The notes under the pieces are model-generated. The model worked only from the letters and a program-made list of their open reading frames with translations, was not told the origin of the DNA and did not search any database. A program made the translations under genes and the position numbers. From Octopus sinensis (lineage: Eukaryota), in NCBI RefSeq assembly GCF_006345805.1, contig NC_043006.1:32922001-32986000 (forward strand): a DNA stretch of 64,000 nt, written 5' to 3'. Every line of letters starts with the position of its first letter. Position 1 is the first letter of the stretch. Shown here piece by piece: positions 3,647 through 62,939 of the stretch.

Positions 3647-4305
3647 GGCGACGAGCTGGTAGAATCGTTCGCACATGGAGCAAGACAGCTTTGTAGGATT
3701 TCATCAGTTTTAATCTTTTGAGTTTCATCTCTTTTTTACACTAGGCACAATACCGAAAATTTTGGGGAAGGGGGCAGTCGATTAGGTCGACCCCCAATAC
3801 GCAACTGATACTTAATTTATCGACCCCAAAAGGATGGACTGCAAAGTTGACATCGGCAGAATTTGAACTCAGAATGTACCGGCAGACGAAATACTGCTAA
3901 GCATTTCGCCCAGCGTGGTAACGTTTCTGCCAGCACGCCGCCTTATATTTCAAAAAACTATTCTTCTCTACTCTTGGGACAAGGCACGAAATTTTGGGAG
4001 AGGGGGCCAGTTGATTAGGTCGACCCCAGTACACAACTGGTGCTTAATTTATCGACCCAGAAAAGATGAAAGGCAATGTCAACCTCGGCGGAATTTGAAC
4101 TCAGAACATAAACACAGACAAAATACTGCTACGCATTTCGCCCAGCGTGCTAACATTTCTGCCAGCTAGCCGCCTTTGAGTTCAATCTCTGCCCTGGTCG
4201 ACTTTGCCTTTCATCCTTTTAAGGAACCAGCTGAGTACTGGGGTCGATGTAATCAGCTTACCCCTTGCTCCTAAACTGCTGGCTTTGGGCCAAAATTTCG
4301 AACCA
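3647..4305. mobile_element. SINE family A cluster: a + copy (3647-3725 and 4177-4305) split by two nested minus-strand copies (about 3736-3945 and 3964-4176)
   Basis: Head GGCGA(C)GAGCTGGTAGAATCGTT, body GAGTT..., GTCGACTTTGCCTTTCATCC and GGGGTCGAT; the reverse complement occurs twice in between. Confidence 0.8.
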
Positions 4306-6165: not shown

Positions 6166-7744
<1,579 letters not shown>

Positions 7745-8243: not shown

Positions 8244-10253
8244 TAAATTCATAAAAGTCAAATTATAAATGAAACCATTAAAAAATCACCAAAGACATAC
8301 ATACACACACCTAATCCGGGGGACCTAAAACTACGACCCATTGTAGCTGGCCCAACCTGTGAAACACACAGACTAAGTCTACTTATGGACATCCTCTTGA
8401 AACCCTTCCTTAAACATATCGATAGCCATATCAGAGATGACTTAGATATGTTAAACCACCTCCCAAAAAAAACCAAGGAAGAAACAATCCTGGTTTCATT
8501 TGATGTAGTCAACTTGTATACCAGTATTCCTCATAATTATGGACTGGAGGCAATACAATTCTGGTTAGACCAATTTCCGGAAGAAATACCAAAAAGGATC
8601 AGTAAGGAATTCATTACTAAATCAATTGAATTCATCCTACACAATAACCACTTCATGTTTGACAATACATTTTACCGTCAAAAATCCGGAATTGCTATGG
8701 GTACAAGGGCAGCACCAGTCATTGCGAACTTAACAATGGGATACATGGAAATAATCATTTACCAGGAATCTCTATCAATCTTTGGAAACTCCCTCTCTCA
8801 ATACATAAAAGAGAATTGGAAACGATTCCTAGACGATTGTTTCATTCTCTGGAATGAAAACATAGATAAACTCCTAAAATTTAAAAACCTATTGAACAGC
8901 ATAAACCCAAATATACAGTTCACAATGGAATACAACCAAAAGGAGCTCCCGTTCTTGGATATACTAATTAAAAAATTAACCTTAAAATAGAAACAGACAT
9001 TTTTTACAAAGCCACAGACGCCAAACAATACCTTCTTTTTAATTCATGCCACCCAAGACACACTAAAACAAACATCCCCTTCAACCTTGCAAGAAGGATA
9101 TGCACAATAGTGTCAGAACAAAATACCAGGAACTTTAGACTGCAAGTACTCAAAAACACCCTAATTGACAGACATTACCCAGCTCAACTCATAGAGGATG
9201 GGATCAGACGTGCAACAGAAATCAACAAAGAAACTTTAAGAAAAGTTCAACACAACAACACACCTTCCCCGAAAATACTACCTTACATATCTACATACAA
9301 CCCCAGAAACAAAGAAGCCTTCACCATCATCACCCAGAATTTACCAATACTTCATAAAAACCCAAAATTAAAGGAAATTCTAAACATACACCAAATCATT
9401 AAAAGCTACAAACAGCCTAAATCACTTAAAAAGATTCTCACAAAGGCAAAATTGTCTTCTAAAATTACGGATGCAAAAGTAAAAAAATGTGGTAGATCGA
9501 ACTGTGCAACATGTCCTAACCTATTGGAAGGATCAGAATTCTTCTTTAAAGAGGGACAGAAATTTAAGATCAAATCTAACTTTACTTGTGCCTCTGAAAA
9601 CATAATTTATGTTATTAAATGCTCGGGCTGCCACCAAGACTACGTGGGTTCCACGGGACTATCACTCAGGCGCAGATGCACACTGCATCGACAACAGATT
9701 GCATTCCCAGAATATAGAATGATACCTTTTAGTGAGCACATTGAGAAATGCGCAAAGCAACTACTGCCACAATTTTTAATCTTCCCATTTTACCAATGTG
9801 CTTTCGGATCATCAACACAAATGAGACTGAACAAGGAAACATTCTTCATTGAAAAGTACAAACCCAGACTCAACCATCCGAACATACTGACACAGAGAAA
9901 TTAACAAGGAAAAAGGAAAAAATTTTTAAGCGATTATCTCCCCTACACCGGAAAAAATCACTCACTACCTCCCCTTATTTAGAAATCTCCTGGAAATAAA
10001 AACAACGATAATTCCATGCAATATAAACATAACGTCACAAGAAATTTGAAAAGCTACACGCGAAACCGGTAATTTCTTTAAAAATATTTAAAATTATGTT
10101 ATTTTAAGGAAAGGAAAAAAATTTTTCCAATATTCTCCAGACATTTTGACACAAATATATATATTTTTTAACATTTAAGCCTTCTGTCGTTTTTTCACAC
10201 TTTACTATTTTCTTATATATTCACCCACATGCTTTACCAAACAAACTTTCCTA

Positions 10254-17545: not shown

Positions 17546-17626
<81 letters not shown>

Positions 17627-17627
<1 letters not shown>

Positions 17628-17912
17628 TGCTCCTGTCGTTTTTAGCCCCAGAAAGACATCTCCTTCAGCTGGCTAACGACACACTGTATTCGATTAGTAT
17701 TTGCGAGGGGAGGTCATCGCTTCCATCTCTAGCCTTACGTGATACACACAGACCCGGGTTTCTGGATAGTTACCCGTCTTCAGTGTGTGATAATCACCAG
17801 CTAGTGATGAAAACTCATTCCACTCGCAAAATACTACATGCTTTCTCACCGTCTCGAAAAAGGAGAAATAAGCTATATTAAATCTCTGAGCGAGAGGCAA
17901 ACAGTAACAGTA
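17627..17912 (-). mobile_element. Hammerhead-containing non-coding repeat unit (candidate retrozyme), between (TA)n tracts
   Basis: Shares blocks with the 39.6-40.4 kb repeat (CCCCAG..A.ACATCT...CAGCTGGCTA; GATAATC...TAG..ATGA; AAATCTCTGAGCGAGA). Internal inverted repeat 17697-17733 / 17800-17836 flanks the ribozyme. Confidence 0.7.
17745..17789 (-). ncRNA. Type I hammerhead ribozyme with canonical core
   Basis: Minus strand: CACACA-CTGAAGA-C-GGGT(AACT)ATCC-A-GAAA-CCCGGG-TC-TGTGTG. 6-bp stem I, CUGANGA, 4-bp stem II closed by a C.A mismatch, palindromic stem III, GUC triplet. Confidence 0.85.
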
Positions 17913-17920
17913 CGGAATCG

Positions 17921-17955
<35 letters not shown>

Positions 17956-18756
17956 TGTGTGTGTGTGTGAGTGTGTATATATATGTGTGTGTATGTATGT
18001 ATTATGTATTATGTTTGTGTGTATATGTATATCTGTGTATATAGAAAAATATATGTGCATGTATGTATGTATCGTGTATATACTCGTCGTTATATATCAA
18101 ATTAAAACCAAATAAATATCTATTACCAGAACACATGCGTGTATTGAAATTAATTAATCTCCGAGGGGGGACTAATTGGGACTTCGTCTGTCAAAGAATC
18201 GAGGTTAAAAGCAGAATCTAACAGAAGTTTCAATGCGCTTCATCTGCCGAAGGTCTCAATTAGTTTCCTCTGATGTTAATTAGTTAACAGGCATACGCGC
18301 GTGTAGATTGGTAATTAGTACATATTTTGGTTTTCATACTTATACGTCCATTAAATTATTGTTCTCATATAGTCAATTTTCATAAGTTATATTACGCACA
18401 CATAAAGTCATACCCCCGCTCACACATTTATTGATGCACATATAGACACATACACTAATGGATCCTTTGGGGGATGTTCTTCCTTGGCCTCAAATCAGAC
18501 TTTATTGAGATCAACTATGTGCAAAGGTGACCTATCCGTGACCAGCACGCCTGTTTCCACACAATATTCAACCGGAGTCACATTTTCTATAGAATGAATT
18601 CAGAGAGATATGGGTTCCGTTTGTAGTGTCTCAGATGGATACTTGATGGCGTGTCTCTTCCCCTCTGTATCCATCCCTCTATGAGCTTCTGTCACCCGCT
18701 TGTTTTCCTCTTCGTACATAAATATATGTGTGTGTATGCATATATATATATATGCA

Positions 18757-36064: not shown

Positions 36065-36131
<67 letters not shown>

Positions 36132-36136
<5 letters not shown>

Positions 36137-36697
36137 GTAAGTAGCTTGCTAACCAACCACATGGTTCCGGGTTCAGTCCCACTGCGTGGCACCTTGGGCA
36201 AGTGTCTTCTGCTATAGCCCCGGGCCGACCAATGCCTTGTGAGTGGATTTGGTAGGTGGAAACTGAAAGAAGCCCGTCGTATATATGTATATATATATGT
36301 GGTAAGTAGCTTGCTAACCAACCACATGGTTCCGGGTTCAGTCCCACTGCGTGGCACCTTGGGCAAGTGTCTTCTGCTATAGCCCCGGGCCGACCAATGC
36401 CTTGTGAGTGGATTTGGTAGGTGGAAACTGAAAGAAGCCCGTCGTATATATGTATATATATATGTGTGTGTGCGTGTATGTTTGTGTGTCTGTGTTTGTC
36501 CCCCTAGCATTGCTTGACAACCGATGCTGGTGTGTTTACGTCCCCGTTACTTAGCGGTTCGGCAAAAGAGACCGATAGAATAAGTACTGGGCTTACAAAA
36601 GAATAAGTCCCGGGGTCGAGTTGCTCGATTAAAGGCGGTGCTCCAGCATGGCCGCAGTCAAATGACTGAAACAAGTAAAAGAGTAAAGAGAAAAGAG
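36132..36697 (+). mobile_element. SINE family B with a tandemly duplicated 165-bp head
   Basis: TGTGGTAAGTAGCTTGCTAACC...GAAGCCCGTCG twice, then a body ending CAGTCAAATGACTGAAACAAGTAAAAGAG. Confidence 0.9.
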
Positions 36698-38705: not shown

Positions 38706-39821
38706 AGTAACAAACGATAAAAGACAAACTATAAATACGTTTCAACAAATCAAGAGAAAGCAAATTCTATTCCTACATTTCTTATTATTCTTCCCAATTT
38801 CAAACATGATCGTTTCACCCATTTGTGTCTGGTTCATTAACCTATATAATTCATCACAACTCTTTCAGCAAATTTCTCATGTAATTTACAGTGAGTTCAT
38901 TTTGAAAGGACGTTGTACATATTTCAACACAAAATGACACGTTTATCCTTTGTTATCCAACAACGATTTCAATGGATTCAGGTTTGTCATGACATCTGCC
39001 AACTCCACGCTACATCTTGCACATCCAGCAGCGTAAGAATCACAGACAAATTTCCTTTGCGTTAGTTTATATGAAGATACGAATCTCTTCCCATATAAAT
39101 TCTGTATTATGGATCTATTGTAAAAACATCATGCATGTTTGTTCATACTTTTCGTGTGTTTTCACGTGATTAGGTTGTATTTAACATAAGTATAAGTTCC
39201 ATATCAAATTCGATCTGCCAATTAACAGAGATTTGAGAATATGAAAGATTACAAATGGATGCGACATCATTTCCATAAACTCTACGTGATATGACAAATT
39301 GTTTGTATGCAATTATTTCTCGCCTCGGTGAAATATATGCTTGAGTGTTGAAACATAATTATAGATTTATATCTACAGCAACCACACGTTCATTTTGAAT
39401 TTACTAAAAACGTGCAAACGAACGTATTCTTTCACAGGTTCCTTCTATCCCTCGCCTCTATATGGAGAAGATGGAAAAAGGAAACTGCCACAGTGTCATG
39501 CTTCTTTCACATCCAACTCAATTTCTATTACTTCTTTAATATTGCAGGATTTCTTATCTGTTCAGAAATAATTTTTATCATTTAATTGGAGAAATGTTAA
39601 AAAAAGAAGAAAGCAATTAGTTTTAAATCTCTGAGCGAGAAGTAAGTAGAAACAAGTAGTAAAATCTATTTGCCAACGTAAATTGTTAGTCCTGATTGAG
39701 ACGATGTTACTACCTTTTTTTTTCTCCAGGAAAACGTATTTTCCAGCTGGCTATCGGCGCGCAGCTGTGTCCTTATGCCTCGAACAAGGGAGCTAATGTC
39801 CCCAATGTGATTTTAACAGTA

Positions 39822-39865
39822 CCTGAGGACCATGGTTCTGAGTTATTTCTTTTCATCGGCATATG
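39822..39865 (-). ncRNA. Degenerate hammerhead-like motif, paralogue of 40165-40210
   Basis: Minus strand CATATG-CCGATGA-AAAGAAATAACTCA-GAA-CCATGG-TC-CTCAGG; one A of GAAA lost and stem I mismatched. Confidence 0.45.
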
Positions 39866-40164
39866 ATAATCGTTGGTTAGAAATGACAGCGCTAGCCTTG
39901 TTCGAGGTATAAGGACGCAGTAGTGCGTTGGTAGCCAGCTGGTAAAGATGTTTTCATGGGGTTAAAAAAAGGTAGTAACATCGTCCTAATCAGGACTGCC
40001 AATTTACGTTGGCAAATATATTTTACTCTGAGTACTGTTATTACTTATTTCTCGCTCAGAGATTTAAAACTAATTGTTTCCTTTACCAGATCAGTGACTG
40101 TGTGTCACTTTAAAGTGTATACCTCGAACAAGGTCTAGCGTTGCCATCTCTAGCCAACGGTTAT

Positions 40165-40210
40165 CCTGTGCCGATGAAGATTAAATAACTCAGAAACCAT
40201 GGTCCGCAGG
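40165..40210 (+). ncRNA. Type I hammerhead-like motif (CCGAUGA core)
   Basis: CCTGTG-CCGATGA-AGATTAAATAACTCA-GAAA-CCATGG-TC-CGCAGG: 6-bp stem I, palindromic stem III, GUC; U4C change and weak stem II. Confidence 0.65.
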
Positions 40211-40501
40211 TCCGCAGGTACCGTTTAAGGCTGAGTGGAGACATTAGCTAGCTTGTTCGAGGTATAAGGACGCAGTTGTGCGTCGGTAGCCGACTAGAAA
40301 AGATATTTTCCTGGGGCTGAAAAAAGGTAGAAACAGTAACATCAACTTACTCAGGAATGCCGATTTACGTTGGCAAATACATTTTACAGTGTTCAAGAAG
40401 ATTGCGTTAAAATACGTTTAGAGCTGCAGAGATTATTAGATTATGTGGTTTTGCATAATACTTTCCGCGATATATATCTAATGCATACATACATACATAC
40501 A

Positions 40502-43224: not shown

Positions 43225-43375
43225 GCTTGTGTGGTAAGAAGCTTGCTTCCCAGCCACAAGGTTTCAGGTTCAGTCCTACTGTGTGGCACCTTGGGCAAGT
43301 GCACTCTACTATAGCCTCGGGCCGACCCAAGCCTTGTGAGTGGATTGGGTAGACGGAAACTGAAAGGAGCCCGTC

Positions 43376-43415
<40 letters not shown>

Positions 43416-43813
43416 GCTGTGCGGTAAGAAGCTTACTTACCAACCACATGGTTCCGGATTCAGTCTTACTGCGTGGTACCTCGGGTAAGGGTCTTCTACT
43501 ATAGCCTTGAGCCAACCAAAGCCTTGTAAGTGAATTTGGTAGGCGGAAACTGAAAGAAGCCCGTCGTATGTATGTGTGTGCGTGGGCTTGTTATCTGTGC
43601 CTGTGCTTGTCCCATCGCCCCATCCACCAACCATCGCTTGATAACCGATGTTGGTGTATTAGCGTCCCAGTCAGCTAGCAGTTCGGCAAAAGAGACTGAT
43701 AAAATAAGTACTAGGCTTACAAAAATAAGTGCTGAGGTCGATGTGTTCAACTTAAAGGTGGTGCTCTAGCATGGCCGCAGTCAAATGACTGAAACAAGTA
43801 AAGGAATAAAGGA
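43225..43813 (+). mobile_element. SINE family B with two diverged heads
   Basis: Head at 43225-43377, (TA)n, second head 43415-43567, then the body. Confidence 0.85.
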
Positions 43814-50340: not shown

Positions 50341-50384
<44 letters not shown>

Positions 50385-50613
50385 GAGTGAGCGAGCAGAG
50401 CATGCCATCAAAGTGACACTGGGGTAAAATATACGAAGCCCAACATACCTATCATGACTACCCGTCTGATAAGGGTACACCAGGCACATGCATCACAACC
50501 ATATGTGCGCGACATGGTGATCTCATATCAAGATAAACAGCACATGACCTTGCAGGTGGAGCCCAGTTAGAATTTTCTTCAGATCGAGTAACACATCCCG
50601 CTCAAAAGGTCCC

Positions 50614-50652
<39 letters not shown>

Positions 50653-51780
50653 GAGTGAGAGAGCAGTTCATGCCATCAAAGTGACACTGGGGTAAAATAT
50701 ACGAAGCCCAATATACCCATCATGACTACCCGTCTGATAAAGATACACCAGGCACATGCATCACAACCATATGTGCGCGACATGGTGATCTCATATCAAG
50801 ATAAACAGCACATGACCTTGCAGGTGGGGCCCAGTTAGAATTTTCTTCAGGTCGAGTAGCCCATCCCGCTCAAACGGTCCCTGAATAAGGGTTGTTTAAG
50901 GATGTTGAAAGAACCACCCATGTTTCCAGAGGTTGAACTATTCAAACCCCAAAGAATCCTCTCAACACATGGCTATGATGCTCCCCCACTACTTCTGCTC
51001 GTGATCAGAGATGCACATATCGTCAGCCACTAAGGACATGCTCAACTGGTTAAGGTCAAACAACTGACAAGCAAATCTGTGGTATTGAGCAGAATATTTG
51101 CTGTAGCCCATCTTTTATACCAAGACAAAACACTGTACATGATAACACTTCCAATCAGTTAAGATCAGAAGCCATGAGAGCCACTGCCTGGTACTGCATC
51201 AGGGCAAAATTATTATTATTATCATTGAGTGAGAGAGCAGTTCATGCCATCAAAGTGAAACTGGGGTAAAATATACGAAGCCCAATATACCCATCATGAC
51301 TACCCGTCTGATAAAGGTACACCAGGCACATGCATCACAACCATATGTGCGCGACATGGTGATCTCATATCAAGATAAACAGCACATGACCTTGCAGGTG
51401 GGGCCCAGTTAGAATTTTCTTCAGGTCGAGTAGCCCATCCGCTCAAACGGTCCCTGAATAAGGGTTGTTTAAGGATGTTGAAAGAACCACCCATGTTTCC
51501 AGAGGTGAACTATTCAAACCCCAAAGAATCCCTCTCAACACATGGCTATGATGCTCCCCCACTACTTCTGCTCGTGATCAGAGATGCACATATCGTCAGC
51601 CACTAAGGGACATGCTCAACTGGTTAAGGTCAAACAACTGACAAGCAAATCTGTGGTATTGAGCAGAATATTTGCTGTAGCCCATCTTTTATACCAAGAC
51701 AAAACACTGTACATGATAACACTTCCAATCAGTTAAGATCAGAAGCCATGAGAGCCACTGCCTGGTACTGCATCAGGGCA
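50139..51780 (-). mobile_element. Tandem stack of four (TAA)n-associated retroposon copies (50139-50232, 50385-50614, 50653-51206, 51227-51780)
   Basis: All share the GAGTGAG end and are separated by (ATT)n; two are full length (to CATCAGGGCA) and two are truncated at the other end. Confidence 0.92.
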
Positions 51781-59815: not shown

Positions 59816-59820
<5 letters not shown>

Positions 59821-62800
59821 CCAAGACCCTTGACAATGAAATGCAGATTGAAATCTCAAAACACTGTGAAGGAGCACTCCTTGATGAAACCACCAAACTC
59901 TGGAGAAAAACTGCGAGGATGAAGAACTAACATCCCTCCAGCGAATGGAAAAAAACAGCTGGTTCACCAATTATGAAACAGAGTTCACAAAGGAACACCT
60001 TTCAAGCAACCCATATTTTAAAATATCTACTTCAAATCACACCCCTCGCCAAAAACAAAGAAAACCAACCACAAAACACCGAACACGCACCACCCCTAAC
60101 ATCAACAACAACAACAACAGAACTTACAGACAGCACTACAATCCCATCAAAAGAACCGAGACACCCATCATCACAAGACAAAACTTTACCAGACAACGTA
60201 GACCCCAACCCACACAAGAACCGTTCCAGATTCGGAGATCCTACCCTTCACTTAGAAACCCACCTCTGAACTATGATTGTAGATTCCAACCCAAACCGCT
60301 CCTAACTCAGAGTTCTCCCCCAACATATAGGAATTCACTTCTAAACCATGAATATAGTTTCCAACCCACTCTAAGGAACCAACATTACACCCAGGACAAA
60401 CAACCCAGAACCTGGAATAACCAAAACTCTTCCAGGAGGCCACACCAACAACCCAGACCCTGGAACAACCAAAACCTCTTCAACAGACAACATATCAACG
60501 GGGGACAGAATAACAACAACCAAAACCTCTTCAACAGACAACATATCAACGGGGGACAGAATCACATACAGCAAAATACCACAAACAGAAGAACCCCAGG
60601 ATTCCTTTTTTAGGCAAGGGCATCAGTTTCCACGACAACCCAGATGGTAGATACCAATCCCGAAAAACCAAAATAGTGAATCTTTCTAACCTAAACCTGT
60701 CGACACCACAAATAAAAATCCTTTCAAGAGGACTAAAATTCACCCCAACTCCGCAATATACCCTACCTGAGGGAAATACAGGATGACATCTCACACTTTT
60801 GCAGAAAATTACGCCTCACAGAGGAATTTTTTGACAGGAAAATTAATAATAACAAACATTGGTCTGTAACAAAAGCAACTATAATCCCATAAAAGGCAAA
60901 AACAAAACCTTAGACAAATTTTGCGATTACATCTCCAACTTCCCTATGGTGAACTCCCACAACCTAAACTCAAACCCAACACCAGTAAAAGAGAATGGGA
61001 AATCATCCATACGCTACGAGACATCATGACGTCACAATAAAGGAAGCTGATAAGGGTAGTACGGTCGTTGTTATGAATACTGAGCAATATAAAAACTCTG
61101 TATCTCTCCTTTTAGAGGATACCACATACTACTAACGATAGAAAGAGTAGTCGACTACCAGCAATCCAAAACAATGACCAAACTGAAGGCACTCATTTAC
61201 CAACACACCGAATGACTTGACAGCAAAGGAATGCGACTACATTACTAAATTTAATTGCAAAAACCAGCACACTCTATGGGCTTCCAAAAATACACAAGAG
61301 TCAAATTATCACAGAAGCTTGCAAAAAGTCCACTTCACCTGCATCAATATACCACATCCCACTGATCTCAACTGAGACCAATAGTGGCAGGCCCAAGTTG
61401 TGAAACACACAGACTTAGCAACTTTATAGATATCATCTTAAAGCCAATACTGAAACACATTCCAAGTATTGTAAGAGATGACCTGGACCTATTAAATCAT
61501 CTCCCCAAACATACCGAAAAAGACACCTTAATCGTTTCTTTTCTTTTGATGTTATTAATCTTTACACCACAATCCACATGAATATGGACTGAAGCCATTA
61601 AATTCTGGCTGGATAAATATCCCAATGAGATCCGGAAAGAATTAAAAAAGAATTCATAATTGAGGGCCTCAAATTTATTCTGCAAAACAACTTCATGTAT
61701 TTCCACAACAACACTTACAGACAGGTCTCAGGAACTGCAATGGGTACGAAAGTTGCACCTACCTATGCAAACATGGTGATGGCCTACCTGGAATCACATA
61801 TCTATGAAAATCCAAATATAGTACGGCCAGTCTTTCCACAAATACCTGTTGGAGAACTGGAAACGCTACTTAGATGATTGCCTCATCCTATAGTCCCACA
61901 CACTCGACCAACTTATAGACTTCAAAAACCTTATCAACAGTGTAAATAACAACATTCAATTCACAATGGAATATAGTCAGGACCAACTCCCTTTTCTTGA
62001 CATCCTAATCATTAAAAAAGGCGGCAACATTGAAACTGACATCCATTACAAACCCACTGACTCTAAACAATACCTTCTATTCACCTCCAATCACCCAAAA
62101 CACACAAAGACAAATATCCCCTTCAACCTAGCGAGAAGAATCTGCACTATGTCTCAATGACACAACACGAAATAGAAGACTCCGGGAACTAAGGGCAATT
62201 CTTCTCGAAAGACATTACCCGGCATCACTAGTAGACAACGGAATAGAACGGGCCAAATCAATCAACATTCAAGACCTACGAAAACCCAAACACATCCACA
62301 GTACAGTAAATAGCCTCCCCTATCTCTCAACACACAACCCAAGGAATGCAGAAGCTTACACTATTATATAAACATTCCACAACTAAATCAAGACCCACGC
62401 CTGAAAAAAAATACTGGCAGCTCATAAAAATAATAAAGTAAGAGACAACCTAAATCCCTAAAAAACTCCTCACCAACGCAAATTACAACAACACAAACCA
62501 CCGCCCACCATCAAAAAATGTGGTCGCCCCAACTGCAGACCTGCATCCACCTCATTGAGGGATCGTCGTACAAGTTCCACTCGGGACACACATTCATCAT
62601 AAAAAATAATTTCACGTGCGCATCAAAACATTTACTCTACGTCATAAGGTGTGAAGGATGCCACGAAGACTACATAGGGCAAACGAGCCTTACCCTCAGA
62701 GAAAGAATGACAGTTCACCGACAACAACTGAGGGACCCCTCCACAAGACAGATACCATTAAGTGGACACTTAGACCTTTGTGCACACAATAAGTCCCCCA

Positions 62801-62900
62801 ATTCTTAGTCTTCCCACTATACCAATGCTCGACAACACCACAGACCAAACACGAATAAATAAGGAAAGTAATCTTATTCAAAAATACAGACCACACTAAA
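59816..62900 (+). mobile_element. Longer Penelope-like (Neptune-type) element, multiply frameshifted
   Basis: LSRGLKFTPTP, TIKEADKG, YGLPKIHK, RPIVAGPSCETHRLS, QVSGTAMGT, RYLDD, LPFLDI, LLYVIRCEGCHEDYIGQT (GIY-YIG); starts at (TA)n; 51-bp tandem repeat at 60464-60562. Confidence 0.93.
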
Positions 62901-62939
62901 ACATACTAACATACTCTAACATACCCCTGGAAACACATC

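What the first reader, a model, noticed from the sequence alone, without database searches (positions are those of the whole stretch)
17627..17912. Diverged relative of the same unit with a canonical CUGAAGA hammerhead and permuted ends
Seen: the minus strand folds as CACACA-CUGAAGA-stem II-A-GAAA-CCCGGG-UC-UGUGUG. Stem I, stem III (CCCGGG vs CCATGG) and the flanking hairpin all differ in sequence from the 40.2 kb copy but keep their pairing, which is natural covariation. The shared blocks start and stop at a different point of the unit, as expected for a piece of a tandem or circular template. Both subfamilies have an A just before GAAA (unpaired 10.1-11.1). Inference: the structure was under selection, and insertion was into (TA)n.
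Basis: partly seen in the sequence, partly recalled or inferred. Interest (0 to 1): 0.8.

Follow-up and report, generated by a model that had tools for sequence, protein, structure and literature searches.

The report
Partial copy of animal hammerhead retrozyme
This is one worn, partial copy of an abundant non-coding repeat that carries a predicted self-cutting RNA motif and is likely spread by Penelope-type jumping genes; elements of this kind are already known in animals, so it is mostly ordinary.

Summary
Confirmed. The minus strand of 17745-17789 carries a type I hammerhead motif with a complete core; 0 of 200 shuffled windows gave one. The 299-nt element aligns collinearly with the 355-nt unit at 39.9-40.4 kb (188 of 282 columns), and 11 of 11 helix I pairs hold, 7 through double changes. 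The family is abundant: 1,670-2,401 contigs in each of three DNA runs. In one run the core never varies at 11% or more while N7 does, and three to four contigs join tail to head through the piece missing here, giving a unit of about 350 nt. This copy is sub-monomeric, worn, and predicted to misfold alone. The A before GAAA is real and fixed, but published Penelope hammerheads offer a precedent. Rfam does not detect the motif. Best reading: a non-autonomous, Penelope-dependent hammerhead repeat (non-LTR retrozyme). Cleavage, circular RNA and the partner element are untested. The scan has reported such elements before on other DNA (32 notes, at least 3 genomes); no note matched this family by sequence.

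The parts
17625..17923 (-). Partial copy (about 299 of about 350 nt) of a non-coding hammerhead-bearing repeat; boundaries uncertain by 1-3 nt
   Evidence: folds at z = -4.2, 0 of 200 shuffles as stable; GC 0.45, longest ATG frame 10 aa on the hammerhead strand and 84 aa on the other
17745..17789 (-). Type I hammerhead motif, from the 5' strand to the 3' strand of the 6-bp helix I
17777..17783 (-). Core box C3-A9 (CUGAAGA); N7 at 17779 varies in about 65% of family depth
17763..17776 (-). Helix II with an unpaired C (17776; U in 19% of depth) and an unpaired A (17763; no variant at 11% or more) flanking a G-C pair; G.U at 17773/17766 where 71% of depth has G-C
17751..17762 (-). GAAA box, palindromic helix III/loop 3 (17758-17753) and GUC; predicted cut between 17751 and 17750
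   Evidence: predicted self-duplex of the 8-mer -14.9 kcal/mol
17739..17797 (-). Helix I extension (17797-17793 with 17743-17739) beyond a 3x1 internal loop, UAU opposite U, identical in all three window copies
17694..17836 (-). Outer stem enclosing the hammerhead hairpin (17836-17816 with 17712-17694); sequence largely different from the 40-kb copy, pairing kept
   Evidence: -20.2 and -24.3 kcal/mol
17878..17895 (-). 18-nt block identical in both subfamilies (40050-40067 and the inverted arm); lies in the segment between the two arm ends of the 40-kb element; candidate protein-recognition site (inferred)
17578..17624 (.). (TA)n run abutting the 3' end of the copy
17923..17952 (.). (TA)n run abutting the 5' end of the copy; a target duplication cannot be read in simple repeat
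39891..40387 (+). Related subfamily, direct arm of 1.4 units of 355 nt; hammerhead 40165-40210 with C at core position 4 and an 8-nt duplication
39607..39911 (-). Related subfamily, inverted arm with a decayed hammerhead (3 of 6 helix I pairs broken, one A lost from GAAA); ends about 55 nt further along the unit than the direct arm

Best explanation
The stretch is a worn, partial (about 299 of about 350 nt) copy of an abundant non-coding repeat that carries a type I hammerhead motif, likely a non-LTR retrozyme copied into a (TA)n run by the enzymes of a Penelope-like retrotransposon. Shown: the motif, the homology with the 355-nt unit, the abundance, tail-to-head junctions in other copies, conserved core and pairing. 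Inferred: tandem source copies are transcribed; two hammerheads pair through their palindromic helix III and cut after GUC; unit-length RNA would be circularised; a Penelope-type GIY-YIG/RT protein nicks AT-rich DNA and reverse-transcribes the RNA. This copy runs through the cut site unbroken (173 nt before, 126 nt after), so its template was an uncut multimer or a re-joined circle, not a cut linear monomer. The copy itself is probably a dead end: one hammerhead, less than one unit, and a predicted misfold.
For: Motif and chance test. Collinear homology. 2,267, 1,797 and 1,670 contigs laid at 80% or more in three DNA runs of three coded organisms; 2,401. Joints going back 295-302 nt from 17927-17929 to 17626-17634 with 30-39 letters between (tables 5 and 5c); a motif from those letters matches the window once, at 39993-40006, inside the part of the 355-nt unit that this copy lacks, 0 of 100 shuffles. 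Core quiet and N7 free. Matching shares of partner changes: 17784/17750 at 34%/37% would turn the A-U closing pair of helix I into G-C; 17757/17754 at 26%/20% would keep loop 3 palindromic (not phased). Two-armed layout of the 40-kb relative with offset arm ends and opposite-strand joints in the family match the published Penelope layout (PMC8557442 passages). Two decayed RT + GIY-YIG elements in the window also abut (TA)n. Size and GC fall in the retrozyme range (PMC7229834).
Against: No cleavage, RNA or circle was shown. No whole genome was held, so long arrays and a position next to a Penelope ORF could not be examined. Each tandem joint rests on one contig in one run. Partner changes are unphased depth shares of contigs. 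Core conservation is not significant against the whole element (p = 0.16). Rfam gives no hit. Both 40-kb arms carry C at core position 4. The two Penelope-like elements in the window share no DNA similarity with the family, so the partner is unidentified. The 40-kb relative is not in (TA)n. In Xenopus only 1 of 9 predicted retrozyme dimers cleaved in vitro (10.64898/2026.07.22.740005).
Confidence: 0.72

Rival explanations
1. The copy is the 5'-truncated stump (solo pseudo-LTR) of an autonomous Penelope-like element, and the family is mostly such stumps, not a separate non-coding parasite.
For: Most Penelope hammerheads occur as single motifs from truncated copies (PMC4209133); retrozymes and pLTRs are close relatives. 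The H after A9 followed by G-C matches the pLTR consensus. The 40-kb relative has the Penelope two-armed layout.
Against: Tail-to-head joints with only 30-39 letters between leave no room for an ORF. The 40-kb direct arm holds 1.4 units with no ATG frame above 60 aa. The 8.2-kb Penelope-like element has a different hammerhead at its own 3' end and no similarity to this family. The motif has a 6-bp helix I, an internal loop and a helix III, closer to the canonical than the minimal type.
Confidence: 0.17
2. The repeat is mobilised as RNA but the ribozyme is no longer catalytic: the extra A beside helix II cripples it, and the helices are kept only as a shape that the Penelope protein binds.
For: The pair next to the core in helix II is normally the most conserved after A15.1-U16.1 (PMC3088659). 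Both 40-kb arms have C at position 4. The monomer fold costs 10.5 kcal/mol over the minimum in this copy. Hammerhead mutants did not affect insertion by an anole Penelope protein in vitro (PMC11167929).
Against: The pattern of a fixed core with a free N7 and a kept palindrome is what catalysis through dimers would leave. Natural hammerheads with U.U at that place are active.
Confidence: 0.08
3. A satellite-like DNA repeat spread by DNA-level processes, with the hammerhead a chance or frozen relic.
For: Tandem junctions and high abundance are also satellite traits; no RNA run was on record as a holder.
Against: Chance is excluded. Seven double changes in 11 pairs point to selection on an RNA fold; the hammerhead strand folds better than the other (z -4.2 against -3.0). 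A dispersed sub-monomeric copy between TA runs fits retrotransposition.
Confidence: 0.03

Closest known systems
Metazoan non-LTR retrozymes (coral, mussel, axolotl; PMC7229834, read: passages and parts 2-4 of 6, supplement unreadable; vertebrate survey 10.64898/2026.07.22.740005, read: parts 1-3 of 5, supplements closed)
   Same: Unit of about 350 nt (mussel 350-390, axolotl 330 and 350), GC below 50%, one type I hammerhead per unit with a 2-bp helix III and palindromic loop, highly self-paired RNA, tandem and solo copies, co-occurrence with Penelope-like elements. Axolotl HHR_Amex2 also has a mismatch (U.U) at the base of helix II.
   Different: Here the base of helix II is H.A (C, U or A facing a fixed A). 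This locus is less than one unit. Circular RNA and cleavage are not shown. Neither paper's main text, as read, names octopus (0 occurrences in PMC7229834).
Hammerheads in pseudo-LTRs of endonuclease-bearing Penelope-like elements (PMC4209133, read: parts 1-2 of 4 and parts 1-2 of 3 of supplementary file 2; PMC8557442 and its preprint, passages; PMC11167929, parts 1-2 of 4)
   Same: Consensus CUGANGAH, G...C, GAAA, palindromic 15.2-16.2; an inverted 5'-truncated arm and offset arm ends ('tail') in the 40-kb relative; AT-rich or (TA)n targets. One of the 56 rows of figure S3 reads AGAAA, an extra A as here (row not assignable with certainty from the extracted text).
   Different: No ORF next to the unit; longer helix I with a conserved internal loop; arm offset about 55 nt against the 30-40 nt described; the extra A is fixed in two subfamilies one third apart.
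Natural hammerhead core variants (PMC3088659, read: passages and section 8)
   Same: Helix II starting with a mismatch (U10.1-U11.1) occurs in nature; palindromic short helix III is common in repeats.
   Different: That survey rejected hits with a mispair next to the core, so this family would have been filtered out; the passages read describe no fixed A at that place.

Membership tests
Type I hammerhead ribozyme | Core C3-A9, G12-A15.1, U16.1, H17 | tested here: met
   no family variant at 11% or more at the 12 fixed positions in run X1 (the 2 hidden rows are T>C and are accounted for by 17791 and 17869)
Type I hammerhead ribozyme | Three helices around the core, ends open at helix I | tested here: met
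   helix I 6 bp + 5 bp, helix II 4 bp, helix III 2 bp with palindrome
Type I hammerhead ribozyme | Base pair directly between A9 and G12 (N10.1-N11.1) | tested here: not met
   C faces A here, A faces A at 40.2 kb, U faces A in about 19% of family depth; a G-C pair follows
Type I hammerhead ribozyme | Match to an Rfam hammerhead model | tested here: not met
   0 hits at gathering on the window; no hammerhead among 17 and 2 matches at E up to 10
Type I hammerhead ribozyme | Self-cleavage after H17 | not testable with these tools
   needs an in vitro assay; monomer fold predicted 10.5 kcal/mol above the minimum
Non-LTR retrozyme | Short (150-450 nt), GC below 50%, non-coding unit with one type I hammerhead | tested here: met
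   355-nt period, about 345-360 nt from joints, GC 0.45 and 0.42, longest ATG frames 10-84 aa, no Pfam match for the two stop-to-stop frames over the locus
Non-LTR retrozyme | Head-to-tail tandem copies in the family | tested here: met
   3 joints with letters shown and 1 without, one contig each, run X1; motif check; 1.4 units at 39891-40387
Non-LTR retrozyme | Two or more consecutive units with complete hammerheads (the 'active' criterion of 10.64898/2026.07.22.740005) | tested here: not met
   not met at this locus or anywhere in the window; not testable genome-wide
Non-LTR retrozyme | Expression as linear and circular unit-length RNA | not testable with these tools
   only contigs were available; no holder on record as RNA
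Pseudo-LTR of a Penelope-like element | Adjacent to an RT + GIY-YIG ORF | tested here: inconclusive
   not so at the two window loci; ends of the two window PLEs show no similarity; rest of genome not held
Pseudo-LTR of a Penelope-like element | Extra H after A9, G10.1-C11.1 and palindromic loop 3 | tested here: met
   C, U or A after A9, then G...C in the 17.6 and 40.2 kb copies; one further A before G12
Pseudo-LTR of a Penelope-like element | Inverted 5'-truncated arm and tail | tested here: inconclusive
   present in the 40-kb relative, absent at 17.6 kb; opposite-strand joints in single contigs

The most novel reading that the evidence does not exclude
A hammerhead subclass with a widened core, a free H after A9 and a fixed extra A before G12 around the G-C pair, has been kept active in two retrozyme subfamilies that are one third diverged; together they give a natural covariation map of a whole 350-nt circular RNA, and their one identical 18-nt block marks the site that the Penelope protein recognises in a non-coding passenger.
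Probability: 0.25. Interest if true: 0.5.

Novelty: new member of a known kind. Interest (0 to 1): 0.24.

Why it matters
It adds one more family to the animal retrozymes and shows that Rfam and strict pattern searches miss such families. The pair of diverged subfamilies offers a ready structure model and two small tests: whether a hammerhead with an extra A before G12 cuts at normal speed, and whether the shared 18-nt block is what a Penelope protein binds. It changes no general picture, and this scan has already reported similar elements.

Tried and rejected
Rfam: no hammerhead match in three searches; the weak hits were microRNA and other models on repeats and were rejected as chance. Whole genome: none held, so copy number, arrays and linkage to an ORF were not counted. 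Pattern scans with the conserved block: 2 loci in viral contigs and 11 in metagenome contigs; in all 13 the match did not extend beyond 27 nt, rejected as chance. RNA: no RNA holder listed; run X17, RNA only by guess, gave 110 contigs, which says nothing on expression. The two Penelope-like elements in the window as source of the unit: local alignment scores within the shuffled range in 6 of 6 comparisons. Target-site duplication: a 35-nt direct repeat at 17595-17629 and 17923-17957 is almost all (TA)n and cannot be told from repeat slippage. An internal polymerase III promoter was considered by eye from recalled A- and B-box motifs and dropped: poor match, not shared by the two subfamilies. 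Lunse et al. 2017 on dimer-cleaving Penelope hammerhead variants was not held; I saw only its citation and a summary in a review (PMC6765202), and it may already show this variant. The supplement of PMC7229834 could not be read and may hold cephalopod examples. Earlier-note searches by sequence and place found nothing, nor did two word searches for the extra A.

Full report
The observation. A scan of both strands of the window for C-cored type I hammerheads returned three rows: this site and two readings of the 40.2-kb site. In 200 dinucleotide shuffles of the window a strict motif (helix I of 6 bp or more, helix II of 4 or more) appeared 0 times and a loose one 10 times. The element lies between (TA)n runs at 17578-17624 and 17923-17952 and folds better than 200 of 200 shuffles on the hammerhead strand (z = -4.2; other strand z = -3.0). 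Rfam does not see it: 0 hits at gathering over the window and no hammerhead among the weak matches of two local searches.

Relation to the 40-kb element. blastn finds two blocks at E 8e-6 to 0.015. A global alignment to a doubled 355-nt unit gives 188 identities in 282 columns, score 201 against 106.5 +/- 7.4 for 300 shuffles, maximum 130. The alignment is collinear, so the copy is a continuous piece of the unit; it looks permuted only relative to a chosen unit start. Helix I and its 5-bp extension keep 11 of 11 pairs, 7 by changes on both sides; sliding controls give 0-8 and 3-5. That count reads the 40.2-kb copy past its 8-nt duplication; without this, 4 extension pairs break. The 3x1 internal loop is the same in all three window copies. 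The outer stems differ in sequence and both pair. With two sequences this is descriptive, not a formal covariation test. The third copy (39.8 kb, inverted arm) is decayed, with 3 of 6 helix I pairs broken.

The family. No genome was held. Public runs of three coded organisms hold 31-46% of the sampled words. Laid at 80% likeness, 2,267, 1,797 and 1,670 contigs of three DNA runs fell on the stretch, and 2,401 in a second lay of run X1. Contigs are not copies, but the family is plainly abundant. The host is probably an octopus; this rests on SINE sequences that I recognised from memory and on earlier notes for the same genome, and I did not test it. In one search, 42 changes reached 11%; 40 were printed, and the two hidden T>C rows are accounted for by 17791 and 17869. 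None falls on the 12 fixed core positions, on the A at 17763 or on the G-C pair 17775/17764, while N7 differs in about 65% of depth. Within the hammerhead, 0 of 12 core against 12 of 33 other positions vary (p = 0.012); against the whole element, 41 of 284, p = 0.16. Partner positions change at matching shares: 17784 and 17750 (34%, 37%), which would swap the closing pair of helix I, and 17757 and 17754 (26%, 20%), which would give a third palindrome in loop 3. These are depth shares and are not phased.

Tandem template. In run X1, contigs leave the stretch at 17927-17929 and re-enter at 17626-17634, three with 30-39 letters shown between and one without (one contig each; 50 further joints were not printed). 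A short motif read from those letters matches the window once, at 39993-40006, in the part of the 355-nt unit that the 17.6-kb copy lacks; 0 of 100 shuffles match. Adding about 20 nt that this copy has lost relative to most relatives (a hairpin at 17845-17852 and a few bases at 17684-17690; loose ends) gives a unit of about 345-360 nt. The copy therefore covers about 85% of a unit and crosses the predicted cut site, 173 nt before and 126 nt after. A cut linear monomer would start and end at that site, so the template was an uncut multimer or a re-joined circle (inference); the data do not separate the two.

State of this copy. At 8 positions more than half of the family depth has one other letter, among them the G.U pair in helix II. 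The hammerhead fold is predicted to cost 10.5 kcal/mol over a hairpin in which the 5' strand of helix II pairs with helix III; the palindrome would pair with a second copy at -14.9 kcal/mol. Published metazoan hammerheads with such a helix III cut well only as dimers (PMC4209133; PMC7229834). This lone copy is likely inactive.

The extra A. All three window copies have A before G12. The base after A9 is C here, U in 19% of depth and A at 40 kb, never G at 11% or more, and a G-C pair follows in the 17.6 and 40.2 kb copies. The published Penelope consensus has exactly such an H after A9 followed by G...C, and one of its 56 rows reads AGAAA (PMC4209133 supplementary figure S3; the extracted text does not keep columns, so the row is uncertain). 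Mismatches at the base of helix II are also known from axolotl and from a broad survey. So the feature is a minor variant with precedent. I found no paper devoted to it in two searches; the most relevant paper, Lunse et al. 2017, was not held.

Mobiliser. The 40-kb relative has an inverted arm (39911-39607) and a direct arm (39891-40387) whose ends differ by about 55 nt of unit, the layout described for Penelope-like insertions with a tail (PMC8557442; PMC11167929). The longest block identical between subfamilies, 18 nt, lies in that segment. [quoted passage not shown] The first shows a CxxxxCxxC linker, which PMC8557442 ties to Neptune/Nematis elements and to microsatellite targeting. Both abut (TA)n. 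Neither shares DNA similarity with this family, so they show that suitable machinery existed, not which element did the copying. The window has 36 TA runs of 16 nt or more covering 1,030 of 64,000 bases, and the 40-kb relative is not flanked by one.

Comparison and verdict. By size, GC, ribozyme type and tandem junctions the family works like, and files under, the metazoan non-LTR retrozymes; the circular RNA and cleavage that define their biology were not testable. A solo pseudo-LTR of an unseen autonomous element remains the main rival, and a 2026 preprint argues the two are closely related. Searches for hammerhead with octopus and for cephalopod with Penelope and ribozyme gave no paper on octopus retrozymes; a squid genome paper lists 235 Hammerhead_1 matches (PMC6962438 passages), and a 2026 octopus repeat annotation lists 31 recently active Penelope-like families and does not use the word ribozyme in its main text (PMC13282606 passages). 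Earlier notes of this scan describe similar octopus elements in at least 3 genomes; they agree with my reading but are not independent evidence. Verdict: real, well supported, a new member of a known kind; interest 0.24.

Noticed in passing
window 8247-10250 (+): 5'-truncated Penelope-like element between two (TA)n runs: RT, one frame break near 8980, CxxxxCxxC linker and GIY-YIG-like end.
   Followed up: partly
window 10039-10078 (+): That element carries its own minimal hammerhead motif with a U3-A8 core, 7-bp helix I, 2-bp helix II and a short palindromic helix III, ending in UA at the cut site; unrelated in sequence to the 17.6-kb family.
   Followed up: partly
window 59816-62910 (+): Second, longer and much-broken Penelope-like element starting right after a (TA)n run, with a long N/Q/P-rich N-terminal region and 51-nt internal repeats; no hammerhead found at its ends.
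   Followed up: partly
window 17923 and 40387: The 5' end of the 17.6-kb copy maps within about 3 nt of the unit position where the direct arm of the 40-kb element stops. It may be a one-turn copy that lost its last 40-55 nt, a transcript 5' end, or chance; unexplained.
   Followed up: partly
window 40171-40172 (+) and 39859-39858 (-): Both arms of the 40-kb element have C instead of U at core position 4, so their template already carried this change.
   Followed up: no
window 39891-39911: The two arms of the 40-kb element meet on one strand of the unit's own outer stem, as if the copying enzyme switched at this inverted repeat; inference.
   Followed up: no
window 7132-7608 (+): Mariner-type transposase fragment (Pfam Transposase_1, E 2.8e-19).
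   Followed up: no
window 3757-4176, 36115-36466, 43228-43573, 50347-50882: Tandem pairs of short interspersed repeats, units 165-268 nt; recalled as octopus SINE-like, not tested.
   Followed up: no
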